64,000 nt of DNA. Origin: the human T2T-CHM13v2.0 reference genome, Homo sapiens. The notes below the pieces were generated by a model. That model did not search any database. It was not told where the DNA came from and saw only the letters and a program-made list of their open reading frames with translations. The stretch lies in assembly GCF_009914755.1 (NCBI RefSeq), contig NC_060932.1. One strand, given 5' to 3'. This document shows positions 14,401 to 20,400 of the stretch, piece after piece (positions within the stretch are counted from its first letter, which is position 1; each line of letters opens with the position of its first letter). A program made the position numbers and the translations under genes.

Positions 14401-17400
14401 CTTCTAAGTTCTGAAAACTTCACCTTGACCCTCCTTAGTCTTTTCCGTGCAACTGATTAATCAAAAGGCATTGCTGATTCCAAAGATATGAGTTACTCTT
14501 TCGTACTGGTCCCCAAAAGTCTCATTCATGTCTTTGTAGAGATGTTCCTAGGCAGTGTGATTTCTCAGGAGAGTATGTTGTTGCCATGAGCCCTGCAGAA
14601 CCTCCCACTTGGAGATCCAAGCTGCCTTCCAACTTCCCGTGAACTCTTCTACTCCTTTTCTGCCAAGCCCCACATCTTACGCCATCACCCTGGGGGACTG
14701 CACCATATTCTAAGGCTTCCCAGTGACTTCTTGTCCATTCTCCCTCCAATAGTGGTGGTGTGATGATCTACTTTGACAGAATTGAAGTGGTGAACTTCCT
14801 GGTCCCGAACGCAGGTACGTCTTAACAGTTTATTCCCACCACCAGCTCACTTTCCCCAGCATGCCACTCCCGTGTCTGTTGTAGCACCTTGGAAAAGGAG
14901 AGCTGCCGTGTCTGAGGGCATTTTGAGTCTTGCCTTTTCTTATGCCAAGCCCTCTCCTTCCCTCTCAGTGTATGATATAGTGAAGAACTATACTGCTGAC
15001 TATGACAAGGCCCTCATCTTCAACAAGATCCACCACGAACTGAACCAGTTCTGCAGTGTGCACACGCTTCAAGAGGTCTACATTGAGCTGTTTGGTAAGA
15101 AAGTCTCTCCTGAGCATGCCGTGCTTAAGCAGGGTTCCTGGAACCCCGCGTCTCTCCACTGCCTAAAGCCTGGCTGCCTGCAGGGTGTGATGGTCACTTA
15201 TGGACAGGAAATGTTAAAGAATCTTGTGCTCAGGAGCTGGTCACAAAGGAGTTCATGGAGAATGCTGATAGCTATGCAACAAGATCCTTAGAGGGCTGGA
15301 GCTTTGGGCACAGGGACCATAGTGGAGTAGAGTATTCACTTCTGGCCTCAATCAGAGGCTGGAGTGGAAATGTGTTCCCACTGTTCCTAAACTATCATTC
15401 TATAATGAAGACAAGGTCCATTCTAGAAGAACCTTAGAGATTGTCCAGACCAGCATCCTCATTTTAAGCTGAGGGTACTGTGACCCAAAGCAAGAAAGTC
15501 ACAGAGCCAGATGCCAATTAGTAGTGGGGCTGAAACAGGAGCCTTCCTCTCCTGGCTCTTCAGCATTCTTCTCACCATGCAACACTGAATGGAGGGCCCC
15601 CAGGAATGGGTGATGAAAAAGACATGATTCATAGTTAATTCTAGAAGTGAGATGAGAACCATAGCTCCTTCCAGTTCTCAGAACCTTTGTGATTATTATT
15701 TTTTTACTCTGTACCTGTAGCAACGAATAGAAAAACACTTTAAACAAAAAGATTCCACGTGCCTAAGTAGATATGTTTTGTCCTTTTTACCTTTTTCAAA
15801 GTAAAGGCAACCTGACTTAGCAGCAAAGGAAGGACACAGTTGGGTAACTGTTATAACTTGTTTGCAGTCAAGTATTCTGTTTAAACTCACTGCCAGAAAT
15901 TCTCTAATAGCCAATGCCAAAAGTAAATGAATTTTTAACCAATAGTATAACTGTTCTTGACACTAGGACTGGAAAATGATTTTTCCCAGGAATCTTCATA
16001 AAAGGGACCCTGAGCAAGAACATTTTTCATAGCAGACAGGAGGACTCATCCACATCGCCAGCAATCATAATTAAGCAAACCGCCTTTTGCACCATTTAAG
16101 ATTTAGGAAATCATCCAAATTACTTTTAATGTTTCTGCAGTAGAAAATGAATCTAAATTCATTTTATAGGGTTTGTAGTCTTTTATCTGTTTTGGATTCA
16201 CTGTGCTTTTAAGAAAAAGTTGGTAAATTTGCCGTTGATTTTTCTTTTTAACCTCAAACTAATAGAATTTTATAAAATATTAATTTTCTCTAGCCATTGT
16301 CTTAGGACTTGTGACATTACATGAACATTTCAAAGCACTGAAAAAAGACAAAGGATCCCTAATGTCCCTGAAGAGGAAATTAAAATACAAAGTTGTTTTT
16401 CATTAGCAAACTTCTTACTTTCTTACAGCTAAACTTGGTAGCTTAGTGAAGTACAGCTGCTTGTATGGAGGAGCTGGGGAAATATATTTGCTTTGAAACT
16501 TTTTTATTTTTACATCTCAGTCTTGCTAGCAAGCACTACTTGGCTTAGAATCTGTCATATCCATAAAGGAGGAGCTCATGTCTCTAGTCCTGGCCCTTCA
16601 ACTCAGAAGGTTCTTCTATACTTTCCTTCTCTCAGGACTCTTATAGCCCAGACTTTAAACATGAAGCTGCATAATTTTCATCACTTCTTACTCTGCCGCA
16701 TCCTCTTTGCCCATGTTATTAAAGTATTATCTAATACTTTGAAGTTTACCTGAAGAACCTCTTTGTGTGTACTTAGTAATACAACTTTTTTTCCTGTCCC
16801 AACACCTTTTAATACAGTTGAATGGATAAAAACATGGATACAAACACATGGATATAGTTATCACTGAAGCAGTGTGACATAAAATAATACCTATGTATAC
16901 AACACTCCTCTGTAAATAGCAAATGTAAAGTAAAAGATACACAACAGATCATTTTGTTTATCTCACTATCATTTATTAATCTATAATGTATCCCTCCTAT
17001 GTATCCATGCAAGGAAGCAATACTAGCTGCCCGACTAGAGGGCAGCTCCCTTGGGTTACTTATTCAGACCCCATTTTCATTCGGATCTGAGCTGTCTTAC
17101 CCGCTCACTGCAACTTGGCTTTTCCTTCTTTGAGTATAAAGTCTGACATGGGATGGCTCACCTATAGCTTCAGTGTGTTAAGTAAAGAAAGCTTTATGCA
17201 GATTCTGGTTTTTAGTGGGTCTCCTCTGACAGTAGAAAGATTCAAACCACAACCAATTCCAAGAACCCTTCTAAGAACAGAGACAGAGTCACTTCAAAGG
17301 ATCTGACTTGCTATACCTAAATATAATTCACGCTGCTTTTCTCTATGACGTACCATAATATTTTGTCCAAAAATCTTGAAACATGTTATTAACTTTGAAG

Positions 17401-20400
17401 AAAGAATAAAACCAGCCACTTTAGAGACCAGAGACACTCAAGCACTTATCTATTCATAAAGTTTCTACACAGCTGAAGAAGTTTGCATCAAATGGACAAA
17501 AAATAGTAAAGAAAATCTAAATACAGAAAAAAATTAGAGAAAAATCCATCTCCTAGAAAGCAGGTCAAATGGACTCAGTTAAAGACCTCACTGCATGTAG
17601 GAGAATCAATGGGAAACAACATAAAGCCTTCTGCTGGGATATAAATAGGAACCAGTCTATGTAATCAAGAAGTTACTTTGTCTCCTGATCTAAATGCTTG
17701 CCTCCAGTCTAGGGCTCAGAAAAAAAGCCTGGTTATTTGAACTGGTTGTCAATCAAGGTCCCCTTCATTTTCACTTTCTTGGCTTCCCATTCAGCCAGCT
17801 CTTGCAGTGGCCTCTTGCTCATGCCTTTGCGCTCCAGCTGTTTTTCAATCACTTTGGCATTCTGTGCATACGAGTCAGCAACTTCCCTAGCCTCAATCTC
17901 CTCTTCCTCTTCATCAATGGTAGACACAGTGACAGAACTGAACTTGCCCATGTCTTTGGTCCGTTTGGTCATCATCACCTTCTTAGGAGGCTCTTGTTTC
18001 TGAGTATATATGTTCGTTTTCCCAAAGCCCTGGCCAAACTTGACGACTGCTCCATCCACAATGAAGGTAACGGGAGCATTCTTCGGCTGGGATTGGTAGA
18101 AGAGCAGCAGTCCACACTTTGCACATTTCTTTCTGTACTGTAGTTCAATGCCTTCAGGTCTCCGCAGATACATAGTCTCTTCGTCTTCTGTGTTACAAAA
18201 CTTATGGGCATGTTTGGCAGCATCAATCACACGGGACCGGTCCCGGGGCCTCATGGGCAATTTCTCTAACTGACAGTCCAGCACTAGGACCACCTGGCCG
18301 CACAAACAGTAGTACACATGGAGGGGCTTCTCGCCGTCGTCATATTCCTCCCGGTCCCGAGTGTCAGAGCAGACTACTGACCGAGACACTACTTTCGGCA
18401 TGGTTTCCAGGAGCAACCTGAAAAACTCTACGCAAAGAAGAGGGTCGCGCCGAAATGACGTCACGAGCGCGCCTTGCGCCTTTTCCCTGCGGCTACCTTA
18501 GTAATACAATTTAAATGGCATTTATCAACATTTCCATAACATATAAACATCAATATTACTAAAACAACTTGAAAAGTATTTCTTTCACATTTTTCCGGTA
18601 AGCTACTAGCCCAGGGCCACAGGTTTCCACCTTGACAGATATAATTTGGTCTGAGGAATGACGTTATTAACTTATGGAGGATACGGGCCATTTAAAGTTT
18701 GGTTGGTATTCTACTTAAAATTACTTAAAATATGAAATGTAATATTTAGTTCTAGTTGTTAAATTGGTTGACCCCTGGCAGGTGTGAGGTGCCGACTCGA
18801 TGGCATTTCTCCTTCGGTGCTCAGAGGCTTGTGAGAGCACATCCTATATGTGGAAACGTTACCGTCCCTTGTTTACTGATACTACTGTCTTAAAATCCTA
18901 ACAATCAAGGCCCACCAGTTAAACAAGCTTGTTATTTTTGCTACTAGCCAGCTTTCATGGGCCTCCGTTTTGGCATCAGTGAAAGAGCGGAGACTTTCTC
19001 TTCCTCAGAGGCTCTTATTTGAGCACAGGTGACCACGAAAGGACCACTTAAAGCAGATGGCGGCTGACAGCAAAGGAGAGATGCAGTGTACAAGTCCCAG
19101 CCTGATTTCACTCTGTCTTTTTCTCTAAGCCCCTCCGGGATCTTATCAAGGATATCATGGGCAGAAGGCAAGGAAGAGGATTCTAAAACCTGAGAAGCCC
19201 ATGCCAGAGAAGTCAGCTTTGGTACTGCTGTTCTGAGATTGCAGCTGGAAAGGAAGGTGGGGGGAGAGTCAGTTACAGCTGTTCCTACATTTGTCTGTGA
19301 AACAACTCATGTGGATTCCAGACAAAGAAATCAGGACCAAAGCAAACAGCACATCAAAAGCCTGGGGCTCGCTTCCAGAACTGTAAATTTTAATTTTCCC
19401 TTTGTGTTGTTTGATGGAGTTCCTAATAGAAACAGTCTTCCTTGGGGCTCTCCTTGACGTCAAAGTCTGTTTTTCTTTTAGAAACTTCTAAAATTACTAG
19501 ATTTAATGTGCTCAGCTCTTTCCACAAAACCTAAATAGCCATTCCACCTTCCTTCTTCTTGGAAACTGTGAACCTTCCTTCTCTTTTGCTGCTATTGTCT
19601 AGGGAAAGGCTGCTGCCTCACGCAAGAAATGTGCTAGAATTGTTTGTTCTTCCTTTTTTTTCTTTTTAAGCTCTCACCCCCTGTAGGGCATGGTTAGTAT
19701 TTTCAGAACAAAGGTTGAGTTTTATCTTGAGGCACAGAAAGAAAATGCCCTTGCGTTCACCATGTAGAGGGCTGCCTGCACAGGCTGCTTCAGAAGTTGG
19801 GCAGGGGATCTTTAGATTTGTGGGCTTTGATAAGCACACTCCCTTGGGAAAGTACATTCTTGAGCTGGTGATTGAGCTTGCACTTTACCTCATCCTGCCC
19901 TCCCTCATCTAGAAAGTGTAACAACTCCTTTTTCTCCATCTTTTCTTTATTCCAGATCAGATTGATGAAAATCTCAAACTGGCTTTGCAACAGGACCTGA
20001 CCTCCATGGCCCCTGGGCTGGTCATTCAAGTAAGCATTGCTGCATGGGAGCAGCCCCTCTCTCTCTGACACTGCTTCCCTTCTCCCAAGGGATGTCCTTT
20101 TTGTGCAGGAAGATCAAGGCCCAGTGGGAGCTGGGTGTGTCCCTCACTACCCTCACTTTCCCATCAGCTGCTGTTTTAATCTCTCTCCAGGCTGTGCGGG
20201 TAACAAAGCCCAACATACCAGAGGCAATCCGCAGAAACTACGAGTTGATGTGAGTATACCCTCCGCCTGGGCTGTGACCACCACTGCCTCCCACCTCCCA
20301 CCTCGTCCCATCCCAGAGGTAACCAAAGCTGCCAGGCTTCTCGGTTATCCCCTTGCTGGAGGATTTGCTACAGCCCATTGCACTGTAAGATTGGGCAGGC

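What the first reader, a model, noticed from the sequence alone, without database searches (positions are those of the whole stretch)
15967..18509. Candidate retrogene-controlled, possibly parent-of-origin, intronic polyadenylation switch in ERLIN2
Seen: within one intron there is a sense alternative terminal exon (15967-16001; ATTAAA at 16379 and 16718) and, immediately downstream, an antisense retrocopy of an X-linked gene with a CpG-rich 5' end. The two 3' ends converge within ~60-400 bp. Established: X-derived intronic retrogenes such as Mcts2 in H13 and Nap1l5 in Herc3 carry maternally methylated DMRs and cause allele-specific use of upstream intronic poly(A) sites in the host. I also recall a maternally methylated DMR being listed in human ERLIN2 intron 6; this is unverified here. 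Inference: activity of the unmethylated retrocopy promoter could shift one allele toward the 152-aa ERLIN2 lacking the coiled-coil/assembly region, giving an imprinted isoform switch in a spastic-paraplegia gene.
Basis: partly seen in the sequence, partly recalled or inferred. Interest (0 to 1): 0.85.

Follow-up and report, generated by a model that had tools for sequence, protein, structure and literature searches.

The report
Known imprinted retrogene switch in ERLIN2
An old backward-facing copy of the X-linked gene STEEP1 sits inside ERLIN2 and carries a maternally methylated mark tied to one-allele use of a short ERLIN2 message; this is real, but it was published in 2014.

Summary
ERLIN2 intron 6 has a sense alternative terminal exon. 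It starts at 15967, its stop codon is 15999-16001, and it gives a 152-aa product instead of 339 aa. ATTAAA signals lie at 16379 and 16718. Next to it lies an antisense processed retrocopy of X-linked STEEP1/CXorf56.

I delimited the retrocopy at 16788-18496 by a 16-nt target-site duplication, an A-tail remnant, and an exon-by-exon match to the parent gene on contig C23.

Court et al. [quoted passage not shown] The DMR is now the standard ERLIN2:Int6-DMR. Published coordinates and primers map to window 18238-18857.

Causality and the interference mechanism remain untested in humans.

Details I did not find in the papers searched:
- The CpG-rich promoter, including a CRE, came in with parental exon 1.
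- The retrocopy kept 18 of 18 parental CpGs in its first 340 nt but only 4 of 14 elsewhere.
- Its 222-aa ORF is intact, with omega 0.14 against the parent.
- One host poly(A) site lies inside retro-derived DNA.

Verdict: real, already known, low interest.

The parts
14969..15094 (+). ERLIN2 exon 6, the last exon shared by the long and short isoforms. Donor is TGTTTG|GTAAGA.
   Evidence: Hub annotation; sequence; donor printed.
15967..16948 (+). Alternative terminal exon of ERLIN2 (RefSeq 'exons of other transcripts'). The coding part is 15967-16001 and adds 11 residues then TAA, giving 152 aa. The acceptor is weak: pyrimidine fraction 0.61 at -20..-3, against 0.89 for exon 7.
   Evidence: hub annotation.
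16379..16384 (+). ATTAAA poly(A) signal in native intron DNA.
16718..16723 (+). ATTAAA poly(A) signal in native intron DNA, about 50 nt before the insertion site.
16772..16787 (.). Left copy of the target-site duplication, CTTAGTAATACAACTT. It abuts the T-run.
   Evidence: random-sequence control.
16788..16792 (-). Remnant of the retrocopy's poly(A) tail: 4-5 extra A relative to the parent's 3' end. It reads as part of T7 at 16786-16792 on the + strand.
16793..18496 (-). Processed retrocopy of STEEP1/CXorf56. It is collinear with the seven spliced parental exons on contig C23.
16808..16813 (-). ATTAAA on the minus strand: the parental distal poly(A) signal, shared by parent and retrocopy.
16929..16934 (+). 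AGTAAA variant signal 14 nt before the RefSeq end of the short ERLIN2 isoform (16948). It lies in retro-derived DNA and is already present, in antisense, in the parent's 3' UTR.
16952..18443 (-). LOC728024 RefSeq transcript NR_003671.2.
   Evidence: Hub annotation.
16972..16977 (-). AATAAA on the minus strand, about 20 nt before the RefSeq 3' end of LOC728024. The parent has AAGAAA here, so this signal is specific to one lineage.
17733..18401 (-). Intact 222-codon ORF with the STEEP1 domain. It differs from the parent at 6 residues.
18218..18330 (.). Published ChIP-qPCR amplicon for the ERLIN2:Int6-DMR. Both primers match exactly, 113 bp apart as published.
   Evidence: Primers from PMC10741953.
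18238..18857 (.). Published DMR (hg19 chr8:37605359-37605978) mapped to the window. It covers 259 bp of the retrocopy's 5' end plus 361 bp of native intron.
   Evidence: The offset 37587121 was the only solution within +-3000 (its +-1 neighbour 37587120 also passes the tolerance); 5 of 5 published coordinates fall on CpGs.
18456..18463 (.). Perfect palindromic CRE, TGACGTCA, 13-20 nt upstream of the RefSeq TSS at 18443. It lies inside the retrocopy and is conserved in parental exon 1.
18497..18512 (.). Right copy of the target-site duplication, CTTAGTAATACAATTT. Read on the minus strand the pre-insertion site is TTT|AAAT, which resembles an L1 endonuclease site (consensus recalled).
19956..20029 (+). 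ERLIN2 exon 7, the constitutive partner of exon 6. Its acceptor is strong.
   Evidence: Hub annotation.

Best explanation
ERLIN2 intron 6 holds an old, L1-mediated, antisense processed copy of X-linked STEEP1/CXorf56. The copy brought in the CpG-rich first exon of its parent, including a CRE, and this serves as its own promoter.

That promoter, plus about 360 bp of adjoining intron, is the published maternal germline DMR ERLIN2:Int6-DMR. It most likely becomes methylated in oocytes because ERLIN2 transcription runs across it.

On the unmethylated allele (paternal, by inference) the retrogene is active. Polymerases travel from 18443 toward 16952, head-on against ERLIN2 transcription. This opposing transcription, or the occupied promoter, slows or blocks ERLIN2 elongation just past a weak alternative 3' splice site (15967) and its poly(A) signals at 16379, 16718 and 16929. 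Splicing into that exon and early polyadenylation then win, giving the 152-aa protein.

On the methylated allele the retrogene is silent, the intron is removed, and the 339-aa protein is made.

Shown here or in print: the anatomy, the DMR, monoallelic short transcripts, and the correlation between retrogene and short-isoform expression. Inferred: which parental allele, causality, and interference as the mechanism.
For: Anatomy:
- Retrocopy limits come from the target-site duplication plus the T-run (0 of 1000 random sequences).
- The parent exons on C23 match query bases 1-1705 of 1709.
- The parent's introns have GT donors, and two Alu inserts sit only in the parent's 3' UTR.

Self-carried promoter:
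- Homology to parental exon 1 runs to 18496, which is 53 nt upstream of the RefSeq TSS.
- The CRE is conserved in both copies.
- The native flank 18497-18896 is CpG-poor, GC 0.365.

Sequence footprint of long-term germline hypomethylation:
- The first 340 nt keep 18 of 18 parental CpGs; the rest keeps 4 of 14. Fisher p = 1.6e-5.

DMR in print, mapped to this window:
- Papers. ERLIN2 is also among the DMRs scored.
- Mapping by primers and by a unique coordinate offset.

Host effect in print:
- Monoallelic short alternatively polyadenylated ERLIN2 transcript.
- rho 0.63 and 0.58 between the retrocopy and two short isoforms.

Kinetic plausibility:
- The alternative acceptor has pyrimidine fraction 0.61 against 0.89 for exon 7.
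- All three host signals lie upstream of the retrogene body.
- The annotated 3' ends are back to back, 16948 against 16952 (hub annotation).

Precedent:
- In mouse Herc3/Nap1l5 the retrogene is antisense to its host. Loss of maternal methylation raises use of the internal poly(A) site.
Against: - I found no perturbation of this locus in the papers searched. Causality rests on analogy.
- The passages I saw do not say which parent's allele expresses the short isoform, and do not state the allelic expression of LOC728024 itself. Court's Figure 2C and Supplemental Table S1 could not be seen (supplements closed).
- For the orthologous human retrogene/host pairs, the host genes were reported as not imprinted (Monk 2011 abstract). 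A host effect therefore cannot be assumed.
- Cowley 2012 could not exclude a methylation-sensitive processing factor even in mouse.
- The size of the switch is unknown. If the short isoform is a minor product, the functional consequence may be negligible.
- The DMR contains no ZFP57 motif TGCCGC in 17000-19500 (motif recalled). It is also described as highly variable in the population.
Confidence: 0.7

Rival explanations
1. The methylation state of the DMR itself sets poly(A) and splice choice, not retrogene transcription. It would act through a methylation-sensitive DNA-binding or chromatin factor that changes ERLIN2 elongation or 3'-end processing. Retrogene expression would be a parallel read-out.
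For: - Cowley 2012 names this as the alternative they could not exclude for Herc3/Nap1l5 and H13/Mcts2.
- H3K4me3 accumulates at the hypomethylated ERLIN2:Int6-DMR in ICF1 iPSCs.
- A CTCF-like match with 1 mismatch lies at 17032 inside the retrocopy.
Against: - No CTCF-like match with up to 2 mismatches lies inside the DMR 18238-18857. The two matches found in 15900-19999 are at 17032 and 19050.
- Across samples, retrocopy RNA level tracks the short isoforms. Interference predicts this; this model does not require it.
Confidence: 0.17
2. ERLIN2 itself is effectively biallelic. The reported monoallelic 'short ERLIN2' signal would come wholly or partly from the imprinted antisense LOC728024 RNA, because the distal 160 nt of the short isoform's exon are retro-derived and the two RNAs abut or overlap.
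For: - 16793-16948 of the host exon is antisense to the parental 3' UTR.
- The parental distal ATTAAA at 16808-16813 (minus strand) is intact. Read-through LOC728024 RNA would overlap the host exon.
- The hosts of human MCTS2 and NAP1L5 were reported as not imprinted.
Against: [quoted passage not shown] That suggests exon-spanning assays, but I could not see the primer design.
- Isoform-level expression correlations were computed separately for the short isoforms.
Confidence: 0.1
3. The allelic bias is genetic rather than parental. A cis-acting variant would influence DMR methylation and isoform choice.
For: The DMR shows 'very high variability' in a control population.
Against: - Reciprocal genome-wide uniparental disomy samples, plus phES cells against sperm, define the methylation as maternal and germline.
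- The DMR loses methylation together with other imprints in MLID patients.
Confidence: 0.03

Closest known systems
Mouse Herc3/Nap1l5 imprinted alternative polyadenylation (Cowley et al. 2012, PMC3467052)
   Same: - Monoexonic retrogene in an intron of a multi-exon host, transcribed antisense to the host.
- Its promoter is a maternally methylated germline DMR.
- Internal host poly(A) sites are used together with alternative terminal exons.
- Retrogene level correlates with the internal-site isoform.
(Passages.)
   Different: - In mouse, causality was tested in Dnmt3L-/+ embryos. Here it has not been tested.
- Nap1l5 shares a bidirectional promoter with a host transcript, Herc3c. The hub annotation shows no ERLIN2 transcript starting in intron 6.
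- This insertion is a later, primate-lineage event. Court 2014 report their new imprinted domains as absent in mice.
Mouse H13/Mcts2 (Wood et al. 2008; seen only as described in Cowley 2012; the paper itself is not held)
   Same: - Intronic retrogene with a maternally methylated promoter.
- On the paternal allele the host uses upstream poly(A) sites.
- Court 2014 cite it as the model for ERLIN2.
   Different: - I did not check the orientation of Mcts2 relative to H13.
[quoted passage not shown] ERLIN2 would thus be one of the few human host genes with a reported isoform effect.
Human RB1 / PPP1R26P1 (CpG85)
   Same: A pseudogene-derived CpG island in an intron of a human disease gene is a maternal DMR absent in mouse. 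It skews host expression (abstract in the search listing, PMC3760807).
   Different: There the island acts as a promoter for an alternative sense RB1 transcript that suppresses the full-length one. Here the retrogene is antisense and the read-out is early polyadenylation.
Nested-gene or intronic-retrocopy transcriptional interference (Kaer et al., as cited by Kubiak 2020, PMC7290577)
   Same: An antisense nested retrocopy is proposed to promote early termination and short host transcripts. ERLIN2/retro_hsap_4044 is their worked example.
   Different: In the passages I saw, that paper does not mention imprinting or the DMR.

Membership tests
L1-mediated processed retrocopy | Intronless copy collinear with the spliced mRNA of a multi-exon parent | tested here: met
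   Query bases 1-1705 of 1709 match seven parental exons on C23. The parent's introns have GT donors and AG acceptors.
L1-mediated processed retrocopy | Poly(A) tail at the 3' end | tested here: met
   Only a remnant survives: 4-5 extra A beyond the parent's 3' end, seen as T7 at 16786-16792 on the + strand.
L1-mediated processed retrocopy | Flanking target-site duplication at an A/T-rich nick site | tested here: met
   A 16-nt repeat, 15 of 16 identical, lies exactly at both homology ends. A pair plus T-run occurred in 0 of 1000 random sequences; a pair anywhere occurred in 63 of 1000. The site reads TTT|AAAT (consensus recalled).
Imprinted intronic X-derived retrogene with host alternative polyadenylation (Mcts2/H13, Nap1l5/Herc3 type) | Parent gene on the X chromosome | tested here: met
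   The parent is on contig C23 of the window's own assembly. X linkage follows from the name CXorf56 and from Court 2014 ('X chromosome-derived').
Imprinted intronic X-derived retrogene with host alternative polyadenylation (Mcts2/H13, Nap1l5/Herc3 type) | Retrogene promoter is a maternally methylated germline DMR | not testable with these tools
   From print only. The published DMR maps to 18238-18857. CpG retention of 18/18 against 4/14 is an indirect sequence footprint.
Imprinted intronic X-derived retrogene with host alternative polyadenylation (Mcts2/H13, Nap1l5/Herc3 type) | Retrogene expressed from the paternal allele only | not testable with these tools
   This is not stated explicitly in the passages I saw.
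Imprinted intronic X-derived retrogene with host alternative polyadenylation (Mcts2/H13, Nap1l5/Herc3 type) | Host has poly(A) sites upstream of the retrogene promoter, used allele-specifically | tested here: inconclusive
   The sites are present: ATTAAA at 16379 and 16718, and AGTAAA at 16929. Allele-specific use is from print only.
Imprinted intronic X-derived retrogene with host alternative polyadenylation (Mcts2/H13, Nap1l5/Herc3 type) | Loss of DMR methylation shifts host poly(A) choice | not tested
   I found no such experiment for ERLIN2.
Functional (protein-coding) retrogene | Intact ORF under purifying selection | tested here: inconclusive
   - The 222-codon ORF is intact, with 0 gap events in the CDS against 8 in the UTRs.
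- Differences from the parent: 11 synonymous and 6 non-synonymous, omega 0.142.
- Against the null 'retrocopy neutral, parent constrained', P = 0.013.
- The chance of a neutral ORF surviving intact is about 0.02-0.03.
- This is a single pairwise comparison with no outgroup DNA. No translation evidence was examined.

The most novel reading that the evidence does not exclude
LOC728024 may not be a dead pseudogene. It could be an imprinted, selectively maintained protein-coding paralogue of STEEP1, and the pair could have evolved a back-to-back terminator.
- ORF: the 222-aa ORF is intact, with omega 0.14 against the parent.
- Promoter: it brought in its parent's CRE-bearing exon-1 promoter.
- Terminator: a lineage-specific AATAAA now ends its RNA 3 nt from a host poly(A) site that itself lies in retro-derived DNA.
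- Clinical corollary: ERLIN2 variants downstream of exon 6 would be under-represented in full-length protein from the allele on which the retrogene is active. That would give parent-of-origin-dependent dosage in dominant SPG18.
Probability: 0.25. Interest if true: 0.45.

Novelty: already known. Interest (0 to 1): 0.18.

Why it matters
ERLIN2 causes recessive and dominant spastic paraplegia (SPG18). An allele-specific choice between a 339-aa and a 152-aa product could in principle make variant dosage depend on the transmitting parent.

In the library searched, no paper connects the two fields beyond a passing sentence (passages). The locus is also one of the few human cases where an imprinted retrogene is reported to affect its host's isoforms. 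The classical human orthologues were reported not to.

The core discovery, however, dates from 2014, and the DMR is already scored in clinical studies of multi-locus imprinting disturbance. The value of this report is confirmation, precise mapping onto the T2T sequence, and a few added anatomical and evolutionary details.

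Tried and rejected
I saw neither the parental origin of the expressed allele, nor the tissues, nor the primer design. Figure 2C itself is not held.
- Wood 2008 (PMC2335310) is not held. The orientation of Mcts2 in H13 was therefore not checked.
- A search for ERLIN2 + imprinted + macaque found 0 papers. 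No non-human primate DNA is available, so the age of the insertion rests only on divergence from the parent.
- (ERLIN2 / paternally expressed / allele-specific expression / imprinted, at least 3 of 4 terms) returned 478 papers. None of the 20 listed mention ERLIN2, so the search was uninformative.
- (STEEP1P1, retro hsap 4044, CXorf56 pseudogene, ERLIN2 Int6-DMR) found only Court 2014. The tokeniser probably missed the underscore and colon forms.
- ZFP57 motif TGCCGC/GCGGCA: none in 17000-19500; the nearest is at 16694.
- CTCF-like motif: none within the DMR.
- I considered that the CpG patch might be native intron DNA next to the retrocopy. I rejected this because homology to parental exon 1 runs through all of 18279-18496. 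All 20 CpGs of the retro part of the DMR (18238-18496) are retro-derived, and only 6 CpGs lie in its native part.
- I considered that the extra blocks in the parent's 3' UTR were introns. I rejected this because they are Alu-like, of 293 and 311 nt. The retrocopy coordinates of adjoining matches overlap by 14 and 17 nt, as a duplicated insertion site would give.

Full report
**1. The observation**

- AG at 15965-15966 precedes an exon that starts at 15967. The coding exons up to 15094 total 424 nt, so the frame enters in phase 1. It reads [11 protein letters not shown] and stops at TAA 15999-16001.
- A script translation gives 152 aa for the short form and 339 aa for the long form, with no internal stops.
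- ATTAAA occurs at 16379 and 16718, and nowhere else on the + strand of 15000-20000.
- RefSeq, as given by the hub, extends this exon to 16948.
- The alternative acceptor is weak. Its pyrimidine fraction at -20..-3 is 0.61, against 0.89 for exon 7.

**2. The retrocopy**

- The minus strand carries an intact 222-codon ORF at 17733..18401. It holds the Pfam STEEP1 domain, E 7.4e-39.
- In a search that returned 791 proteins at E <= 1e-10 among 989 candidates, the ORF is 97-98% identical to mammalian STEEP1 proteins.
- A 16-nt direct repeat, 15 of 16 identical, lies at 16772-16787 and 18497-18512. The left copy runs into a T7 tract.
- In 1000 Markov-1 random sequences, such a pair occurred anywhere in 63. 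A pair next to a T6+ run occurred in 0.
- The window's own assembly is held. Searching it with 16788-18496 found the query itself plus nine pieces on contig C23. These cover query bases 1-1705 of 1709, exon by exon.
- The parental introns begin with GT and end with AG.
- Two Alu-like blocks of 293 and 311 nt interrupt the parent's 3' UTR but not the retrocopy.

The element is therefore a classical L1-type processed copy of STEEP1/CXorf56. It occupies 16793-18496, with an A-tail remnant at 16788-16792. No other copy was found, although that search scores only the best candidates.

**3. Consequences of the true borders**

*Promoter.* The RefSeq TSS of LOC728024 (18443) lies 53 nt inside the retrocopy. 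The core promoter, with a perfect CRE at 18456-18463, is therefore retro-derived. The CRE is conserved in parental exon 1. The native flank is CpG-poor. So are the 700 nt upstream of the homology in the parent: GC 0.36, obs/exp 0.41. The CpG-rich segment is thus exon 1 itself, and it travelled with the mRNA.

*Host poly(A) site.* The stretch 16793-16948 of the host's alternative exon is antisense parental 3' UTR. The AGTAAA at 16929, 14 nt before the RefSeq end, is therefore retro-derived. It is already present in the parent. The two ATTAAA signals are native intron DNA.

*Retrogene poly(A) site.* The AATAAA that precedes the retrogene's RefSeq end (minus strand, 16977 to 16972) reads AAGAAA in the parent. 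The parental distal ATTAAA is kept in both. The annotated ends, 16948 (+) and 16952 (-), stand back to back.

**4. Evolution**

Mismatches against the spliced parent:

| Region | Mismatches | JC distance | Gap events |
|---|---|---|---|
| 5' UTR | 9 of 94 | 0.102 | 1 |
| CDS | 17 of 669 | 0.026 | 0 |
| 3' UTR | 65 of 929 | 0.073 | 7 |

- *Age.* At a recalled primate rate of roughly 1e-9 per site per year per lineage, the divergence implies an insertion some 30-40 million years ago. This is a rough inference. It fits Court's statement that their new imprinted domains are absent in mice.
- *Coding changes.* The CDS has 11 synonymous and 6 non-synonymous differences: dS 0.082, dN 0.012, omega 0.14.
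- *Polarity.* At all six changed residues the X-linked parent agrees with other placental STEEP1 proteins. For five of them, most or all of the eight other vertebrate sequences aligned also agree. The changes are therefore probably on the retrocopy branch.
- *Test against neutrality.* The null is a neutral retrocopy, a constrained parent and equal branches. Under it, the chance of 6 or fewer non-synonymous among 17 differences is 0.013.
- *ORF survival.* A simple neutral-decay estimate for an intact frame is 0.02-0.03.
- *Reading.* This is moderate evidence for past purifying selection on the protein. It is not proof: it is one pairwise comparison with no outgroup DNA.
- *CpG retention.* The first 340 nt of the retrocopy keep 18 of 18 parental CpGs. 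The remainder keeps 4 of 14. Fisher p = 1.6e-5. A region unmethylated in the male germline would leave this footprint.

**5. What is in print**

- Court et al. 2014 (PMC3975056; passages) verified maternal methylation at ERLIN2. They identified the DMR as the CXorf56-pseudogene retroinsertion (LOC728024). [quoted passage not shown] Their new ubiquitous DMRs are hypermethylated in parthenogenetic ES cells and unmethylated in sperm.
- Docherty et al. 2014 (PMC3963529) give hg19 chr8:37605359-37605978.
- Later papers use the name ERLIN2:Int6-DMR. ERLIN2 is among the DMRs scored in a 2026 multi-locus imprinting study.
- Both ChIP primers of PMC10741953 match once each, at 18218-18237 (+) and 18311-18330 (-), 113 bp apart as published.
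- Five published CpG or probe coordinates all fall on CpGs at a single offset. Apart from its +-1 neighbour, it is the only solution within +-3000. This places the DMR at window 18238-18857: 259 bp of retrocopy holding 20 CpG, plus 361 bp of native intron holding 6 CpG.
- Kubiak et al. 2020 (PMC7290577) and a 2021 review (PMC8071448) describe the correlation of retro_hsap_4044 with two short ERLIN2 isoforms (rho 0.63 and 0.58). They propose early termination by interference.

**6. Mechanism**

The best reading is the Herc3/Nap1l5 model.

- On the unmethylated allele the retrogene promoter fires toward the host.
- Convergent polymerases, or the occupied promoter, hinder ERLIN2 elongation just downstream of a weak acceptor and three poly(A) signals.
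- Terminal-exon definition then beats removal of the 4.9-kb intron.

Shown: Inferred: that the active allele is paternal, that the relation is causal, and that interference is the agent rather than a methylation-sensitive factor. Establishment of the imprint by host transcription across the island in oocytes is also an inference, from general knowledge of maternal germline DMRs.

**7. Rivals**

- *A methylation-sensitive factor.* It was not excluded even in mouse. However, no CTCF-like site lies in the DMR.
- *Contamination of the 'short isoform' signal by overlapping antisense LOC728024 RNA.* This is made possible by the retro-derived exon tail. I could not judge it because the primer design sits in closed supplements.
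- *A cis-genetic bias.* The uniparental-disomy and gamete-proxy data argue against it.

**8. Novelty**

The finding is a correct rediscovery of a published imprinted locus.

I did not meet the following in the passages read: the exact insertion borders, the parental origin of the promoter and CRE, the CpG-retention contrast, the omega estimate, the lineage-specific AATAAA, and the retro-derived host poly(A) site. These are refinements. I cannot claim they are unpublished beyond the searches named.

No paper in the library links ERLIN2 imprinting to SPG18 beyond one sentence.

**9. Limits**

- No methylation or expression data can be examined with these tools.
- Court's figure and supplement were not seen.
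- No primate genomes were available.

Noticed in passing
window 18300-18431 (probes cg13346869 at 18396 and cg05020125 at 18431): The reported higher methylation of ERLIN2:Int6-DMR in females (PMC12288321; two LOC728024 probes are sex-associated in brain, PMC8006465) may be array cross-hybridisation. 50-mers around the CpGs at 18300-18397 match exon 1 of the X-linked parent at 48-50 of 50 bases. That exon would be methylated on the inactive X if the parent gene is subject to X inactivation; I did not check this. Both papers mention or cite probe filtering. The actual probe orientation was not checked.
   Followed up: partly
window 17733-18401 (-): The gene RefSeq calls a 'transcribed pseudogene' has a full-length open frame with omega 0.14 against its parent. 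Three of its six replacements cluster at the C-terminus (R198P, L205W, A210V).
   Followed up: partly
L002 (G000:C23:117914996-117918508), parent 3' UTR: Two Alu-like insertions (293 and 311 nt, one in each orientation) lie in the STEEP1 3' UTR and are absent from the retrocopy. The retrocopy coordinates of adjoining matches overlap by 14 and 17 nt, as a duplicated insertion site would give. They therefore post-date the retroposition and could bracket its age.
   Followed up: partly
window 17000-19500: No ZFP57 recognition hexamer (TGCCGC/GCGGCA; motif recalled) lies in or near the DMR. The nearest is at 16694, in the short isoform's 3' UTR. This might relate to the reported high population variability and frequent loss of methylation of this DMR.
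   Followed up: no
window 17405-17410 (+): A canonical AATAAA lies on the host-sense strand inside the retrocopy body. It is the only + strand AATAAA in 15000-20000. It could be a further cryptic ERLIN2 poly(A) site supplied by the insertion.
   Followed up: no
window 19455-19462: A second perfect CRE (TGACGTCA) lies in native intron 6, about 1 kb upstream of the retrogene promoter in the retrogene's sense. These are the only two in the 64 kb.
   Followed up: no
ERLIN2 intron numbering: Court 2014 place the DMR in 'intron 7'. By NM_007175.8 exon order it is intron 6, which matches the later name Int6-DMR (hub annotation).
   Followed up: yes
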